Shown here in pieces: positions 44,351 to 49,332 of a DNA stretch of 64,000 nucleotides. A model generated the notes under the pieces. The model worked only from the letters and a program-made list of their open reading frames with translations. It had not been told where the DNA came from and did no database searches. The DNA comes from Fistulifera solaris (Eukaryota). Positions within the stretch are counted from its first letter, which is position 1; each line of letters begins with the position of its first letter. Location: positions 1,550,001-1,614,000 of the forward strand of contig AP026126.1 in NCBI GenBank assembly GCA_030295235.1, written 5' to 3'. The position numbers and the translations under genes are program-made.

Positions 44351-45527
44351 ATGCGTTCCATGGCAGTAGCGACAGCAAGAAGATTACAACTTCGACACCA
44401 GAGACTGACAATTCGGCCATTTACGGCAGAGCAACGGACTGATTCATCAGCGACCGAAGATGCCAAGAGACGACAATCCGAAGCAAAGTTAGAAGCCAGG
44501 TTTCTGACCGCAAATAAATTCACTGACTTGCCCGACCCCCAGAAAGAAAAAGGCACTACAACAACTACAACTACGTTTACAGGAACTGCACAAAGCCGGA
44601 AATGCTCGAGCAGCGCTCAAAGTTGCCGAAGAGCTACACCAAGAGACAGAAAAACATCTCGGTGCGCATCATCCGGCCACGGCTTCCGCACGCTCGAATA
44701 TTGGGTTACAGCTCAAGCTCCTGGGAAAATGGAACGACAGTCGTAAACAATACGAACAGGCACTGAAAATTTATCGCGCGACGGTGGGTCATGATCACGC
44801 GAGCACTGCTTCCGTTCATCACAATTGGGGAACACTGTTGCGCACGCAACTGCATCTGGACGATTCTCTGAGTGCAACGGACCGCTTAAGTGTTTTGGAA
44901 ATGTCATTGGAGCACTTGGAAAAGGCGTACAAAATTCGATTGGCGGAATTGGGAGCCGAACATCCTCATACCGTGGCAAGTCGGTCGGGATGGGGCGCAT
45001 CGTTAGCGTCGCAAATATTGCAGAATTACAAACAGACAACTAAAGGGGTGTACCGTTCTATGGTTCCAGAAGAAGTGACGACCAATGGCTGGGATGCTGC
45101 AGAAGAGCACTTGCGACAAGCGTACGTCACAGCTCTGGCGAATCCACGAGGACGTGGATTGCAAAATCAAAAGACGCGCGCCAAGACAAAACGACAAAAG
45201 CCGACACAACAACAACAACTCACCACGATACAGACCTTATCGGCGGCTTCGGCCGGACAAAACCTAGCCCTCGTGTTGAAAGCACGAGCGGCGGTCTCGG
45301 GTGACAACGAACGACTGAACGAAGCGCGCGATTTGTACCGGCAGGTCCTACAAGTGCGAGAGAAGCTATTGCCAGCGGACCACCCCGATTTGTATGCGAC
45401 CAAATTTAGCTTGGCTGAACTATTACAAGCACAAGGTGACGAAGAAGCTGCCAATGCGATACGGCAGGAAATTGTGGATACTTATGACCCGCCAGAATAT
45501 GACGAGAATGACAAGAGTGCGACATGA
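44351..45527 (+). CDS. TPR-repeat protein (kinesin-light-chain-like TPRs) with probable mitochondrial presequence; broken by indels
   Basis: R-rich N-terminus; repeats GHDHASTASVHHNWG, LGAEHPHTVASRSGWG, LPADHPDLYATKFSLAELL. Confidence 0.7.
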
Positions 45528-45615: not shown

Positions 45616-47488
45616 TTAGTCACTGCCCGTTTGTTCCTTGCGTGCGATCTTGCGTGGTGGCAAAGCGATTGGCGGAGCACGAACCGATGCGCCTTCCTGC
45701 ACACCCCGTTGGTATTCGATCATGTAATCTAACGCGCCGCATTGACTCGCGAGCAAAGTAGCAACGGCTTCTGTTTGGGCGTGAGTTAGCGCTCCAATGC
45801 GACCCTTTCCACGTGTTCTCAATACATCATTCAAGACCGGGTCTGTGTCCTCGAGAGGAGGGCACTCTAAGCTGATACGTACCCGTATTTGCACCGGGAA
45901 GGGTGAGGACGTGGCCTTAGGGTTCTTGGAAAATGCAGTCGGCTCAATATTCATCCGTGCTGGTGTGAGGGCTTCAAAGATTCCAAAAAGTAACCGGTCA
46001 GTCACATTGAACAAGAATATGGTTGCACCAGGCTGGATGTTGGAAGCTGCTGCTTTCATATGAGCCGGAAGTCCAAATATACCCCGTCCCAAACATTCGT
46101 CCATAGTATCGGAACTGCAACCAAATATAAAGCCAGGACCAGGCATTGTTGGCCAGGCAAGTTCCTCTTCCCCGGGAGCCTTAAAGTCGAGCAAGTTTTC
46201 CGGTGGATCTGCTTCGCCAGTCCACGACTCATAAAGCGTCACTAGCGGAGCATTCCAAATTGCTTTCATCAGGGATTCACCAGTCTTCCAAGACATGTCT
46301 TGACAGTATTGCGTGGTGCTTGTTGGAAGAAGAAGATCAGGCGCAACTTCGAGAGCTGTTTCAATGGAGAGCTCTGTCGTCCGGTACCAGTCGACCTGAA
46401 TTCGATAGCTGAAGCTCGCCTCACCGTGGTCAGCTGACTTATGATAAACGGCAGCAGATTTCAGCATTGCGGCACCTTGAATATGCCGGCTGTCGCTCAC
46501 AGTAAAGAACAACATGACTTGCGTCTTGGCTTCAAACAACTCATTCAGTTTCGCAGCATGTTTGTGCTGGACATACCATTCACCACGAACCGTACTAAGT
46601 GCCAAGTCGCGTTGCGTTGCCGCCCTCACAATGAAAAACGATGCTTCTGAAGGCTCCAGGATCGGAATAGGCTTTCCTCCGCCACTTGCACCTCCTTCAT
46701 AGTACTCAATCGTTGTTTGGTCGACATTTGAAAACAAGTCCTCCGAGATCTCATTTGTCAGTGTTTCCGGCTCTTGTGTTTTCTTTGGGAACTGACGTAA
46801 CTCGGCTTCACCGTGAGCGAAGTGACAGCTGTCACCTATACGATTGATAAGAAAGGATCGGTTCAGAGCTGTAAGGGACACAATTCGCGGAAGCGTCGAG
46901 TAGCACAAAACTTACCGAAAGGACATTCACCGGCCATGAAATGCTTACAGAGACTAATCTTATAAAATTCATTTGGTTTTGGTGCAGGTCGACGGGCTAC
47001 CTCCTTGTTATTTGCTTGCATCTGTGTCAGTCCGACAGAAAAATCCGCCACTAACGGTAGATCTTCTCGTGGTCGTTTGGTGTGCTTGTAGCGACAAAAG
47101 GGCCATGAATGCAAAATCCAGATCTGTAAAAAGCGCATTCCATTCGGTTCTCTTCACTGATGTGACGAAACGGACAATCTTTGATTTTACAGCGATCGCC
47201 GTGACGGCAGATAGGCATTTTACTTAGATCGTATTGATGCAAAAATTCGCACGCCGCTCCTTTCATGCAAAGATCTCGTAGCCAATGACGACACACTACT
47301 GTACGAAGACGAGGATCATGCTTTGCACTCGTCAACACGGGTTCCTCGTCGGCATTCTCGTCCGCAAAAACCGAGCCCGTTTTTCGGTAGGGTAACGGAT
47401 CGAGCGTTTCCGGAATTCCATGTTCGAGTGCATAGTTTTCAAAGTCGTATTCAATCGTATTTGCGGTAATAAAGTCTTCTGTTAGCAT
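45616..47488 (-). CDS. CPSF30: CPSF30/CPSF4-like protein: three CCCH fingers + extra CCCH + YTH + DCD domain; intron 46836-46915; indel near 47097
   Basis: TVVCRHWLRDLCMKGAACEFLHQYDLSKMPIC; ECAFYRSGFCIHGPFCRYKH; CKHFMAGECPFG|DSCHFAHG; YTH-like FFIV...SxxRGEW..Q...KLNELF....VMLFFTV..SRHIQGAA; DCD-like GFIFGCSSDTMDECLGRGIFGLP...IQPGATIFLFN...LFGIFEA...FPVQIR. Confidence 0.85.
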
Positions 47489-47941
47489 CTTAAGATTCTA
47501 TCTGAATGAGAATTAATAACATTAAATAACAAAACAAATGAATACAGACAAATGCGAATGAATTTTTGTTATAAAGGTGAAGTCGTCAAAAACACAACCA
47601 CACAAATCACGATCATGGATCTCAAGAAGGTAAAGAACAACACCCGGGATTCCAACGTGGTCCCCCACCGTAGTACTAACCGGGCCTGACGATGCTTAAC
47701 TTCGCTGAGCAGACGGGAAGCGGTGCTGTCATCGAAGTATGGTCGTTCCTTCTTGTGAGGAGCAAAAGTAATTTATTATTAACTTTGTATAATACGACTC
47801 AGCTCCTAAATGCAATATCTGAGTTCTTGCCACTTGACACATATTTTGTTAGAGATTACGTTTTCGTTGACCCATAAGAATCTAGCCCTATGTTGCTATT
47901 TCGCTTTCAATAGCTTTCAACTATGTAGTATCTTAGTGTTA

Positions 47942-48938
47942 TTATCTCCGGTTATCGGGCGTGAAACTCATGTCTGCTAGTTCCAAAACCGTGGGCAGAT
48001 TTTGAATGGCCGTAAGGTACTCGAGATCATCTTCGTTCGTCTGGAAGATTTGATTCACCGAATGTTTAAACATCGGAATTATGGATGCTAACGGCTTTGT
48101 GGATGAATCGTCTTCGAACGCTGTCCCCCATCCACTTTCCTGCAGTTTGCCAAAGAAAAAACCCAAGGCGTCGCTTTCTGCGTCTTTCATCACTGGACTT
48201 TCCATTATATCCCACATTTCGTCAAACAGATGCGATCTTTCGTCACTGAAACCGTAGGCAGCAGGTGACATAATGAAGCGCAATAAGCTCCGTTTCCGTT
48301 TGGTTCCTTCTACTTGTTGTCGTATCGAAAATATCATCGCCCCGACGTCTTGTTTCGAGAAGCACTGTCGAACATCGGTATCTCCGCAATCAAATACAGC
48401 GCGTTCGACAGTGCGGATCAATGACACAATCCCAGTTTCAAAAAAAGAACTCGTACGTTTGACGTAATGCAAGTTGATGTTCCGAGGAACCTTTTTCCGG
48501 CCGCCGACTTGCCAAATAGTGAATTTGTACCGTCAACGTTAGCGATAATAGGGTATAAGAGTACAACGTTACCAGAAGACGAGTCAAGAAACGAGTGTGC
48601 AATACCTCCCATAATTCGTCTTGCTTTGCGGAATCGCCTGAATCAGCTCGTAATGCCTTCAACGCCTGTGTCGGTTCCTTGGTGGGAATTCGTTCTTCGA
48701 CAATTGTTCGAATGGTGGGTAAGAAACGACACAGCGTTCGCCTGACATCCATACGACAATTCCGCAAGCGAGTACGTCGGCCCTTCCAGTCATCTGTTTT
48801 CGTGTTATTGCTCGCACTACAATATTGATTCCAGGCCCAAGATCCCAACTGATACGCGCTGTAGGCCACCGCTGCCGTTGTCACGATGTTCGACATTGCA
48901 AATCTCCCCCTTCGTTTTTGCTGTTGCTCGTTTTCCAT
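47942..48938 (-). CDS. PEX3: Peroxin 3; apparent indel at A-run 48440-48446
   Basis: Basic N-terminus plus hydrophobic anchor; KQDELWEVL...FLTRLLVTLYSYTLL...VQIHYL; E.WDIMESP; KPLASIIP. Confidence 0.78.
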
Positions 48939-49332
48939 GATTTAATAATAATAAAGTGAGAAAGATCATGTAATACCGGGCAGCTACACGATATGGTTTT
49001 GTTTATAGAAAAAATAAGAGACGATTAGCGATAAGGTCGCTGCGACGACAAGGAAAAAACGAAAAACCTCGTCCGTTTCATAGGGTACTACCAGGTACTA
49101 CCGTAGCCGGTCTACCGGTAGGTTTGTGACGTATCGTATCGGTACTTAAGGGTAGTTTCATACATATTTCAGACTGTACCGTATACTCGCCCAAGTGTAC
49201 ACAATAACGTATGATGGACTGACGGTAATATGTTGTCACCGCGAGCCGCGAGCATCGATAGCATTTTTTTTCAGACAAAGAATGGGCCTCATTGTCACGC
49301 AATAGGTAATAGAAATAGGACACAAACACATC

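What the first reader, a model, noticed from the sequence alone, without database searches (positions are those of the whole stretch)
45616..47488. CPSF30 with an extra CCCH finger and tandem YTH + DCD domains
Seen in sequence: CPSF30 zinc fingers, a fourth TTP-like CCCH finger (YKISLC...HFAHG, split by an intron), a YTH-like domain and a C-terminal DCD (Dev_Cell_Death)-like domain. Established knowledge: CPSF30-YTH fusions link m6A to polyadenylation in plants and apicomplexans. The additional DCD domain is not part of the CPSF30-L architecture I know; from memory DCD is a PUA-like fold related to YTH/EVE, which needs checking. The YTH keeps the first cage Trp (GEW), but the second cage Trp position looks replaced (AAVYHK region). 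Inference: a dual modified-base reader on the diatom poly(A) machinery, possibly with DCD taking over or adding to the reader role. An unspliced form would stop soon after the zinc fingers, echoing the short and long CPSF30 isoforms of plants.
Basis: partly seen in the sequence, partly recalled or inferred. Interest (0 to 1): 0.75.

Follow-up and report, generated by a model that had tools for sequence, protein, structure and literature searches.

The report
Diatom CPSF30 with YTH and DCD
This is a diatom's copy of the mRNA 3'-end factor CPSF30 carrying two extra pocket domains (YTH and DCD) of the kind that read chemically marked bases; the gene is real but already annotated, and this fusion was described from genome comparisons in 2020.

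Summary
On the minus strand, 47488..45616 encodes a 597-residue protein: three CPSF30-type CCCH fingers, a fourth TTP-like finger split by an 80-nt GT-AG intron (46915..46836), a YTH domain (Pfam 5e-20) and a DCD domain (Pfam 4.6e-28). A predicted structure puts the DCD in the EVE/YTH (PUA-like) fold (Z 14.1 to an EVE protein).

It is not new. The model equals GenBank GAX19311.1 (Fistulifera solaris CPSF subunit 4) at 596 of 596 comparable residues. 114 of 120 listed relatives, the named ones all diatoms, share the architecture. Bell, Wolf and Koonin (2020) described heterokont CPSF30 with YTH and DCD and proposed that the two domains read different marks.

- The window has a 1-nt frame break inside finger 3, which is probably a sequence error.
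- The middle tryptophan of the m6A cage is absent in 0 of 101 close (diatom-type) and 0 of 23 distant relatives, while W, D and F of the pocket are kept.
- Diatom forms lack the KH domain of the published architecture.

The intron is lineage-specific, so the short/long isoform idea has no support from conservation. No function has been tested. This scan had not noted the gene before on other DNA.

The parts
45616..47488 (-). Whole CPSF30-YTH-DCD gene: ATG 47488, stop 45618..45616, 597-residue model
   Evidence: The model is identical to GAX19311.1 at 596 of 596 comparable residues, with X at the frame break against G.
47237..47293 (-). CCCH finger 1 (C66..H84, C-x7-C-x5-C-x3-H), equivalent to human CPSF4 finger 2
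   Evidence: Pfam zf_CCCH_4 and zf-CCCH. The family profile matches CPSF4 residues 63-145.
47162..47209 (-). CCCH finger 2 (C94..H109, C-x5-C-x4-C-x3-H), equivalent to human finger 3
   Evidence: and the sequence itself.
47082..47137 (-). CCCH finger 3 (C118..H136), equivalent to human finger 4, interrupted by the frame break
47100..47104 (-). Site of the 1-nt frame break: the Gly129 codon has only GG and is followed by CCC TTT TGT
   Evidence: The window was compared with the 10 loci that cover the site, all in frame. GAX19311.1 has G here.
46813..46949 (-). Fourth, TTP-like CCCH finger (YKISLC...CHFAHG, C-x7-C-x5-C-x3-H), split by the intron
   Evidence: Pfam zf-CCCH at 2e-05 on the exon-1 part. 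The best solved relatives are tristetraprolin (2.8e-13) and TIS11d.
46836..46915 (-). 80-nt GT-AG intron; read through, it gives ...CPFGKFCATRRFRELCPLQL and then a stop
   Evidence: The spliced product equals GAX19311.1. The intron is absent at this site in 11 of 11 metagenome loci.
46258..46641 (-). YTH domain; pocket residues D268, W278 and F333 (protein numbering)
   Evidence: Pfam 5e-20. AtCPSF30 YTH (5zuu) matches at E 6e-14 by sequence and at 3.8e-11 by Foldseek.
45760..46134 (-). DCD (Dev_Cell_Death) domain; conserved F445, F493, F504 and Q507
   Evidence: Pfam 4.6e-28. The model has pLDDT 92.7. It has the EVE/YTH fold at Z 9.2-14.1.
45655..45675 (-). C-terminal motif PPIALPP, invariant in 21 of 21 aligned diatom sequences
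   Evidence: Invariant columns P387-P393.
47632..47750 (-). 5S rRNA gene 143 nt upstream of the ATG (a neighbour, not part of the gene)
   Evidence: Rfam RF00001, 100.6 bits.

Best explanation
This is the diatom orthologue of CPSF30 (CPSF4/Yth1), the zinc-finger subunit of the mRNA cleavage and polyadenylation factor. It is the long form typical of heterokonts.

Shown here: one gene encodes three CPSF30-type CCCH fingers (equivalent to human fingers 2-4), a fourth finger of tristetraprolin type, a YTH domain and a DCD domain. Both C-terminal domains have the PUA-like EVE/YTH fold. They are modelled as one confident unit joined by a conserved linker.

Inferred: fingers 1-3 do the usual CPSF30 work, that is poly(A)-signal RNA contact and Fip1 contact. 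The added arm (TTP-like finger, YTH, DCD) holds the 3'-end machinery on pre-mRNA that carries modified bases, and so biases poly(A) site choice or termination, as the YTH of Arabidopsis CPSF30-L and Toxoplasma CPSF4 does for m6A.

The YTH pocket is probably still in use, because W278, D268 and F333 are almost invariant in diatoms. It has a two-aromatic cage instead of three. The DCD pocket most likely reads a different mark; Bell et al. proposed m5C.

The frame break in finger 3 of this window is most likely a sequence error and not biology.
For: - Identity. The family profile matches human CPSF4 fingers 2-4 at E 4e-35, yeast Yth1 at 1e-23 and AtCPSF30 YTH at 1e-31. The window model equals GAX19311.1, 'cleavage and polyadenylation specificity factor subunit 4 [Fistulifera solaris]', at 596 of 596 comparable residues.
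- Architecture is conserved. 114 of 120 listed relatives carry zf-CCCH, YTH and DCD together; the other 6 are shorter (389-461 aa) and carry YTH and DCD only. Fifteen distant relatives have the same three families.
- Fold. The exon-2 model has pLDDT 87.9 and pTM 0.83. The DCD model has pLDDT 92.7. Its matches are the EVE protein PH1033 (Z 14.1), the Mmi1, TgCPSF4 and AtCPSF30 YTH domains (Z 11.3-12.5), the EVE restriction enzyme VcaM4I (11.6), THYN1 bound to 5mC DNA (9.7) and ASCH (9.2) (Foldseek).
- Pocket residues among 101 close sequences: W 100, D 100, F 99 plus Y 2. In the DCD, F445 is F in 101 of 113 sequences, F493 is W or F in 106 of 113, F504 is F or Y in 100 of 113, and Q507 is kept in 113 of 113.
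- The gene is under constraint. The window keeps 229 of 231 columns that are invariant in 20 other diatoms. The two misses are the X at the break and one K for R.
- Literature. The heterokont CPSF30-YTH-DCD proteins and the hypothesis of two marks are in PMC7641849 (passages read). The Phaeodactylum orthologue J50624 (Pt_CCCH12) is a highly nitrate-sensitive gene that its authors thought post-transcriptional (PMC6779911; passages read).
Against: - No binding, complex membership or expression was tested here, and I found none in print.
- The middle cage tryptophan is absent. It corresponds to W428 of YTHDC1 and W465 of YTHDF1 (positions cited from PMC7384225). No Trp stands in that loop in 0 of 101 close and 0 of 23 distant relatives. 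The canonical SRD(G/C)QE motif reads TTQYCQD in the diatom sequences shown. m6A reading may therefore be weakened or lost.
- Whether diatom mRNA carries m6A or m5C, and whether diatoms have METTL3/14, was not settled by the papers I read.
- The window's own DNA does not give an open frame through finger 3.
- That this is the only CPSF30 of the organism could not be checked, because no genome is held. A search for short forms returned mostly fragments of the same family.
Confidence: 0.55

Rival explanations
1. The YTH half is a degenerate reader, and the DCD is the only working modified-base pocket. It would couple a mark other than m6A (for example m5C) to polyadenylation.
For: No Trp stands at the second cage position in 0 of 124 family members. 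The SRD motif has diverged in diatoms. The DCD keeps three conserved aromatic positions and an invariant Gln in an EVE-like fold whose solved relatives bind 5mC or 5hmC (THYN1, VcaM4I).
Against: W278, D268 and F333 of the YTH pocket are kept in 99-100 of 101 close sequences. That would be odd for a dead pocket. The match between DCD aromatic positions and cage positions rests only on the order of secondary-structure elements. The profile-profile alignment of the two domains was not significant (E 0.33).
Confidence: 0.15
2. Neither domain reads a modification. Both would serve as plain RNA-binding or protein-binding modules, as the Mmi1 YTH domain binds unmodified RNA.
For: Mmi1 YTH chains are among the best Foldseek matches of the DCD model. 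The YTH cage is incomplete. That Mmi1 binds unmodified RNA is recalled and comes from no call.
Against: Pocket-lining residues are among the most conserved positions of both domains. All solved close relatives of the fold with known ligands bind modified bases.
Confidence: 0.15
3. The window copy is a real frame-shifted allele or young pseudogene of one of the two F. solaris homeologues.
For: The DNA as given lacks one base in the Gly129 codon. The organism has a second copy, GAX24592.1, which differs from the window's model at 17 residues besides the break and could cover a loss.
Against: The annotated protein GAX19311.1 is otherwise identical and has Gly at the break; skipping bases of the window's sequence cannot produce that (and the sequence). 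Two near-identical open-frame calls from other contigs read straight through the site. There is no other damage: 229 of 231 invariant columns are kept. The break sits in a C3/T4 run.
Confidence: 0.12
4. A programmed -1 ribosomal frameshift on C CCU UUU restores the finger.
For: The break creates a canonical X XXY YYZ heptamer in the incoming frame, and a -1 slip would give exactly ...HGPFCRYKH (sequence).
Against: The 106 nt downstream have no unusual structure: z = +1.0, and 175 of 200 shuffles fold at least as well. All 10 related loci are in frame without any slip. Deleting one base from GGN CCC TTT TGT makes the heptamer automatically.
Confidence: 0.02
5. The protein is a free-standing nitrate-responsive post-transcriptional regulator and not a CPSF subunit.
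For: The Phaeodactylum orthologue was picked up as a highly nitrate-sensitive gene and listed among transcription factors as Pt_CCCH12 (PMC6779911). The TTP-like finger resembles mRNA-decay factors.
Against: Fingers 1-3 match CPSF4 and Yth1 far better than any other CCCH protein (4e-35). I saw no second CPSF30 candidate among the 61 short hits, though that search cannot exclude one.
Confidence: 0.08

Closest known systems
[quoted passage not shown]
   Same: The order is the same: CCCH fingers, then YTH, then DCD, in a CPSF30 orthologue. The proposed role is the same: two readers on the 3'-end machinery, with the DCD perhaps reading m5C.
   Different: The diatom form has no KH domain. Pfam finds none in the window, and none appears in the precomputed Pfam lists of the 120 listed relatives. 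KH is present in 8 of 15 distant Znf-YTH-DCD relatives. The passages I read give an oomycete example and do not use the word diatom. They do not discuss the cage residues or single out the TTP-like finger.
GenBank GAX19311.1 / UniRef100_A0A1Z5JZW4, CPSF subunit 4 of Fistulifera solaris
   Same: It is identical to the window's model at 596 of 596 comparable residues, with the same splice.
   Different: It has Gly at the position where the window's DNA lacks a base.
Arabidopsis CPSF30-L (PDB 5zuu) and Toxoplasma CPSF4 (PDB 7ng2, 7nh2, 7njc)
   Same: Both have three CPSF30 fingers followed by a YTH domain. They are the closest solved YTH domains by sequence and by fold.
   Different: They have no DCD and no fourth TTP-like finger. 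The plant cage is W-W-Y (PMC7384225), whereas here it is W, no Trp, F.
Plant DCD/NRP proteins and prokaryotic DCD/EVE modules of restriction systems
   Same: They share Pfam family PF10539 and the PUA-like fold. The FGLP, LFLFN, PFPxQ(V/I)R and PPLE-like motifs are present (sequence; the motif names are recalled).
   Different: Here the domain is fused to an mRNA-processing factor. Position F493 is Trp in 62 of 91 more distant DCD sequences.
Tristetraprolin / TIS11 tandem zinc fingers (PDB 1m9o, 1rgo)
   Same: They share the YK-x-x-LC lead-in, the C-x5-C-x3-H core and the FAHG..ELR tail. They are the best solved matches of finger 4.
   Different: There is a single finger here, not a tandem pair. 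The first spacing is C-x7-C and not C-x8-C.

Membership tests
CPSF30 / CPSF4 / Yth1 | Consecutive CCCH fingers homologous to human fingers 2-4 | tested here: met
   The family profile matches CPSF4 residues 63-145 at E 4e-35 and Yth1 at 1e-23.
CPSF30 / CPSF4 / Yth1 | Uninterrupted coding sequence in this window | tested here: not met
   One base is missing in the Gly129 codon of finger 3. The annotated protein of the species is intact.
CPSF30 / CPSF4 / Yth1 | Assembly into CPSF with CPSF160, WDR33 and Fip1 | not testable with these tools
   This needs co-purification.
CPSF30-YTH long form (plant CPSF30-L, Toxoplasma CPSF4) | YTH domain C-terminal to the fingers | tested here: met
   Pfam 5e-20. 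5zuu matches at E 6e-14 and at 3.8e-11 by Foldseek.
CPSF30-YTH long form (plant CPSF30-L, Toxoplasma CPSF4) | Three-residue cage W-W-(Y/L/W) | tested here: not met
   The first W and the third position (F) are present. No Trp stands in the beta4-beta5 loop in 0 of 101 close and 0 of 23 distant relatives (alignments to 5zuu and YTHDC2). This was tested by sequence alignment only.
CPSF30-YTH long form (plant CPSF30-L, Toxoplasma CPSF4) | Asp or Asn that hydrogen-bonds N1 of m6A | tested here: met
   Asp is present in 100 of 101 close sequences. It aligns with the second Asn of KSNNREN in 5zuu. The role of this residue is taken from PMC7384225.
Heterokont Znf-YTH-DCD-KH (Bell et al. 2020) | Fingers, YTH and DCD in this order | tested here: met
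Heterokont Znf-YTH-DCD-KH (Bell et al. 2020) | C-terminal KH domain | tested here: not met
   Pfam finds no KH at E up to 0.1. Only about 45 residues follow the DCD. None of the 120 listed relatives has KH in its Pfam list.
DCD (Pfam PF10539) | Score above the curated cut-off | tested here: met
   98 bits against a cut-off of 27.8.
DCD (Pfam PF10539) | PUA-like (EVE/YTH/ASCH) fold | tested here: met
   Z 14.1 (rmsd 2.8, 124 aligned) to PH1033, and 15 chains at Z 8 or more, all EVE, YTH or ASCH.
DCD (Pfam PF10539) | Binding of a modified base | not testable with these tools
   This needs binding assays. It is untested for any eukaryotic DCD in the papers I found (titles and abstracts).
TTP / TIS11 tandem zinc finger | Finger with YKxxLC lead-in and C-x5-C-x3-H | tested here: met
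   1m9o at E 2.8e-13 and 1rgo at 1.9e-11.
TTP / TIS11 tandem zinc finger | Two such fingers in tandem with C-x8-C spacing | tested here: not met
   The sequence has one finger with C-x7-C spacing.
Programmed -1 frameshift site | Slippery heptamer plus a downstream structure, conserved in relatives | tested here: not met
   The heptamer is present. The downstream fold has z = +1.0. All 10 related loci are in frame.

The most novel reading that the evidence does not exclude
In diatoms, and perhaps in all heterokonts with this protein, the YTH half has lost the middle tryptophan of the m6A cage. The DCD half keeps three conserved aromatic residues and an invariant glutamine. The DCD, and not the YTH, could therefore be the working reader. 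It would tie a mark other than m6A (such as m5C) to poly(A) site choice, possibly as part of the nitrate response seen for the Phaeodactylum orthologue.
Probability: 0.15. Interest if true: 0.7.

Novelty: already known. Interest (0 to 1): 0.33.

Why it matters
If the two pockets really read RNA marks, this protein would join two epitranscriptomic signals directly to mRNA 3'-end formation in a major group of marine primary producers. It would also be the first eukaryotic DCD domain with a defined ligand.

For this scan the practical result is more modest. The gene and its architecture are in public databases and in a 2020 comparative paper.

Four smaller points add something and are testable: the KH-less diatom form, the family-wide lack of the second cage tryptophan, the TTP-like finger, and the link between a published nitrate-sensitive 'transcription factor' (Pt_CCCH12) and CPSF30.

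Tried and rejected
- Reads. The look-up of sequencing runs listed 7 runs. Four of them, from one study, hold half or more of the words. Splicing, expression and the frame break could therefore not be checked on reads.
- The window's own genome is not held. Paralogues and m6A/m5C writer genes could not be looked for.
- Programmed frameshift: rejected.
- Equivalence of YTH cage positions and DCD aromatic positions by profile-profile alignment: not significant. The global run gave nothing and the local run gave E 0.33. It stays an inference from the order of strands and helices.
- Literature on m6A writers in diatoms. Passages of PMC11312118 and PMC12695648 were read. They gave no clear statement for diatoms.
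- Other searches. 'CPSF30, YTH, diatom' gave one plant review, seen as a listing only. 'CPSF30, YTH, stramenopiles' gave none. 'DCD domain, reader, RNA' from 2020 held 17 papers (13 listed), and by title and abstract none is an experiment on a eukaryotic DCD. 'CCCH12/J50624' gave only Smith et al. 2019 as relevant.
- The three held supplementary files of Bell et al. contain diatom EVE proteins but no diatom CPSF30 entry under the four terms I searched.
- 5S rRNA next to the gene in relatives: none in 7 loci.
- The sigma-70 promoter and terminator scan is at chance level and is meaningless for a eukaryote.
- Earlier notes of this scan: none near the place and none holding all three words.
Full report
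**What is there.**
The finding lies on the minus strand.
- The ATG is at 47488..47486. A frame opens from it that encodes MLTEDF...GFCIHGPF.
- Relatives continue with CRYKHTKRP..., which the window encodes in the -1 frame.
- That second frame runs to 46916, where a GTAAGT donor starts an 80-nt intron (46915..46836) ending in TATAG.
- Exon 2 (46835..45619) is open to the stop at 45618..45616.
- Splicing restores ...YKISLCKHFMAGECPFG|DSCHFAHGE. The model is 597 residues long.

**Domains.**
- Pfam finds YTH (E 5e-20) and Dev_Cell_Death (E 4.6e-28) in the exon-2 frame, and CCCH fingers in both exon-1 frames. It finds no KH domain.
- A profile of 124 family members matches human CPSF4 fingers 2-4 (chain residues 63-145) at E 4e-35. 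It matches yeast Yth1 at 1e-23 and the Arabidopsis CPSF30 YTH domain at 1e-31. The first three fingers are therefore the CPSF30 core.
- The fourth finger, taken whole from the close relative P0002, matches tristetraprolin (E 2.8e-13) and TIS11d (1.9e-11) better than CPSF4's own fingers (1.6e-07). The match includes the YK-x-x-LC lead-in and the FAHG..ELR tail. It is a single finger with C-x7-C spacing.

**Folds.**
- AlphaFold2 on exon 2 with a 124-row alignment gave mean pLDDT 87.9 and pTM 0.83. The linker between the domains has pLDDT 89 or more.
- With the whole model, Foldseek finds the YTH domains of AtCPSF30 (3.8e-11), YTHDF and YTHDC.
- The DCD alone (pLDDT 92.7) was compared with about 48,000 representative solved chains. 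The scores were:
  - Z 14.1 (rmsd 2.8, 124 aligned) to the EVE protein PH1033;
  - Z 11.3-12.5 to the Mmi1, Toxoplasma CPSF4, YTHDC and AtCPSF30 YTH domains;
  - Z 11.6 to the EVE domain of the restriction enzyme VcaM4I;
  - Z 9.7 to THYN1 bound to 5mC DNA;
  - Z 9.2 to ASCH.
  After these the scores fall to 7 and below (Foldseek agrees).

**It is already annotated and the kind is published.**
- The word-index search found 270 relatives among 7939 candidates. Of the 120 listed, 114 carry zf-CCCH, YTH and DCD. Six shorter ones carry only YTH and DCD. None lists KH.
- Named members are all diatoms: Phaeodactylum PHATRDRAFT_50624, Epithemia, Attheya, Nitzschia, Mayamaea, Seminavis, Chaetoceros and Eucampia. 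Several are complete MMETSP transcripts, so the three parts are one transcript there.
- The 90% cluster of the best hit contains two 597-residue Fistulifera solaris proteins named 'cleavage and polyadenylation specificity factor subunit 4'.
- The window's model equals GAX19311.1 at 596 of 596 comparable residues. It differs from the second copy, GAX24592.1, at 17 residues besides the break.
- Bell, Wolf and Koonin (2020; PMC7641849; passages read) classified DCD as PUA-like. [quoted passage not shown] They proposed that DCD and YTH read distinct marks, with m5C suggested for DCD.
- The word 'diatom' does not occur in their main text. The three held supplementary files showed no diatom CPSF30 under my four search terms. 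Diatoms are heterokonts, so I class the finding as already known.

**The frame break.**
- The window reads CAT GG- CCC TTT TGT. All 10 related metagenome loci that cover the site read CAY GGN CCN TTY TGY in one frame (11 loci were fetched, and one starts downstream of the site).
- GAX19311.1 has Gly there. No skipping of bases in the window's sequence could produce that protein (and the sequence).
- Two near-identical open-frame calls from other contigs (P0271, P0332) also read straight through.
- The window keeps 229 of 231 columns that are invariant in 20 other diatoms. The two misses are the break itself and one K for R.
- The break happens to create a C CCU UUU heptamer. The 106 nt downstream are not structured (z +1.0; 175 of 200 shuffles fold at least as well), and relatives need no slip.
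- I read the break as a one-base error in a C3/T4 run. A real frame-shifted allele of one homeologue is the main alternative.

**The YTH pocket.**
- HMMER alignments to AtCPSF30 and YTHDC2 put W278 (GEW) on the first cage Trp. They put F333 on the third cage position (Tyr in the plant protein, Leu in YTHDC2). That position lies eight residues before the strand Trp in the chains aligned; that it does so in the other solved YTH families is recalled.
- The second cage Trp falls on His or Lys. Cage definitions are taken from PMC7384225 (passages read).
- Across alignment A2, 0 of 101 close sequences and 0 of 23 distant relatives have any Trp in that loop. Its length varies from 12 to 43 residues in the close set.
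- In the close set W278 is kept in 100 of 101, D268 (the N1 hydrogen-bond position) in 100 of 101, and F333 in 99 of 101, with Tyr in the other 2. Seven distant relatives have Trp at the F333 position.
- The canonical SRD(G/C)QE motif is TTQYCQD in the window and similarly diverged in the four other diatoms shown. Four of the 16 distant relatives shown keep SRD.
The strong conservation of the remaining pocket residues argues that the pocket is still used.

**The DCD pocket.**
- Among 113 DCD sequences, F445 (the FGLP motif) is Phe in 101. F493 is Trp in 62 and Phe in 44. F504 is Phe in 59 and Tyr in 41. Q507 is invariant.
- By the order of strands and helices in the two models, these residues sit roughly where the three YTH cage residues sit.
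- That equivalence is an inference. A profile-profile alignment of the two domains was not significant.

**Variants of the architecture.**
- I scanned 23 distant representatives. Fifteen have fingers, YTH and DCD, and 8 of those 15 add a C-terminal KH domain. One has YTH and DCD only. Seven have DCD without YTH, and one of these adds a NYN nuclease.
- Diatoms instead end in two helices and an invariant PPIALPP motif.

**The intron and the isoform idea.**
- Read through, the intron adds 19 residues and a stop, and it removes the last Cys and His of finger 4.
- The finger is encoded without interruption in 11 of 11 metagenome loci.
- The intron shows only in the window and in two Fistulifera-like open-frame calls that run from CPFG into KF....
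- A regulated short form is therefore not a conserved feature, and nothing here supports it.

**Function.**
- No experiment on this protein family was found. The one relevant paper is Smith et al. 2019 (PMC6779911; passages read).
- In that paper the Phaeodactylum orthologue J50624, listed as transcription factor Pt_CCCH12, is the only annotated transcription factor in the highly nitrate-sensitive gene set. The authors judged it post-transcriptional. They did not call it CPSF30 and did not mention DCD.
- That Arabidopsis CPSF30-L affects nitrate signalling through poly(A) site choice is recalled and comes from no call. The parallel is only a lead.

**Surroundings.**
- A 5S rRNA gene lies 143 nt upstream on the same strand (47632..47750, 100.6 bits). 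No 5S gene was found in 7 related loci.
- A TPR_12 protein gene converges on the 3' end and stops at 45527, 88 nt from the CPSF30 stop codon.
- A Peroxin-3-like open frame lies further upstream on the minus strand.

**Verdict.**
Both the gene and its architecture are already known, and no function has been tested. The frame break is most likely an artefact. The points worth carrying forward are the incomplete YTH cage set against the well-kept DCD pocket, the missing KH domain, and the nitrate link.

Noticed in passing
window 47632-47750 (-): A complete 5S rRNA gene (Rfam 100.6 bits) lies 143 nt upstream of the CPSF30 start codon on the same strand. The Pol II promoter and 5' UTR must therefore fit into that gap or overlap the Pol III gene. 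No 5S gene was found in 7 related loci.
   Followed up: partly
window 47100-47104 (-): There is a one-base gap in the Gly129 codon of finger 3 relative to every relative and to the annotated protein of the species. This suggests the sequence version in the window may carry short-homopolymer indels elsewhere too.
   Followed up: partly
window 44508-45527 (+): A TPR_12/TPR_10 protein frame of 339 codons converges on the CPSF30 gene. Only 88 nt separate the two stop codons, so the two 3' ends must lie very close together or overlap.
   Followed up: partly
window 48441-48941 (-): An open frame has a weak Peroxin-3 match (E 3.3e-08). It covers only the start of the 458-position profile, so it is probably one exon of a PEX3 gene.
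   Followed up: no
window 45655-45675 (-): The C-terminal motif PPIALPP is invariant in 21 of 21 aligned diatom proteins. It follows two helices after the DCD, in the place where some non-diatom relatives have a KH domain. Its partner is unknown.
   Followed up: no
protein P0233: A 1128-residue relative has two DCD domains and a C-terminal NYN ribonuclease domain (E 7e-24). Other relatives have two to four DCD repeats. The NYN fusion hints that DCD acts on RNA.
   Followed up: no
proteins P0333 and P0336: Fistulifera solaris has two 597-residue copies that differ at 17 residues. None of the differences falls on W278, D268, F333, F445, F493, F504 or Q507. That this fits the two sub-genomes of this diatom is recalled.
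   Followed up: partly
L004:2889-3001: In this relative the fourth finger is uninterrupted, but the frame leaves the conserved sequence right after CHFAHGE. An intron seems to sit just after the finger instead of inside it.
   Followed up: no
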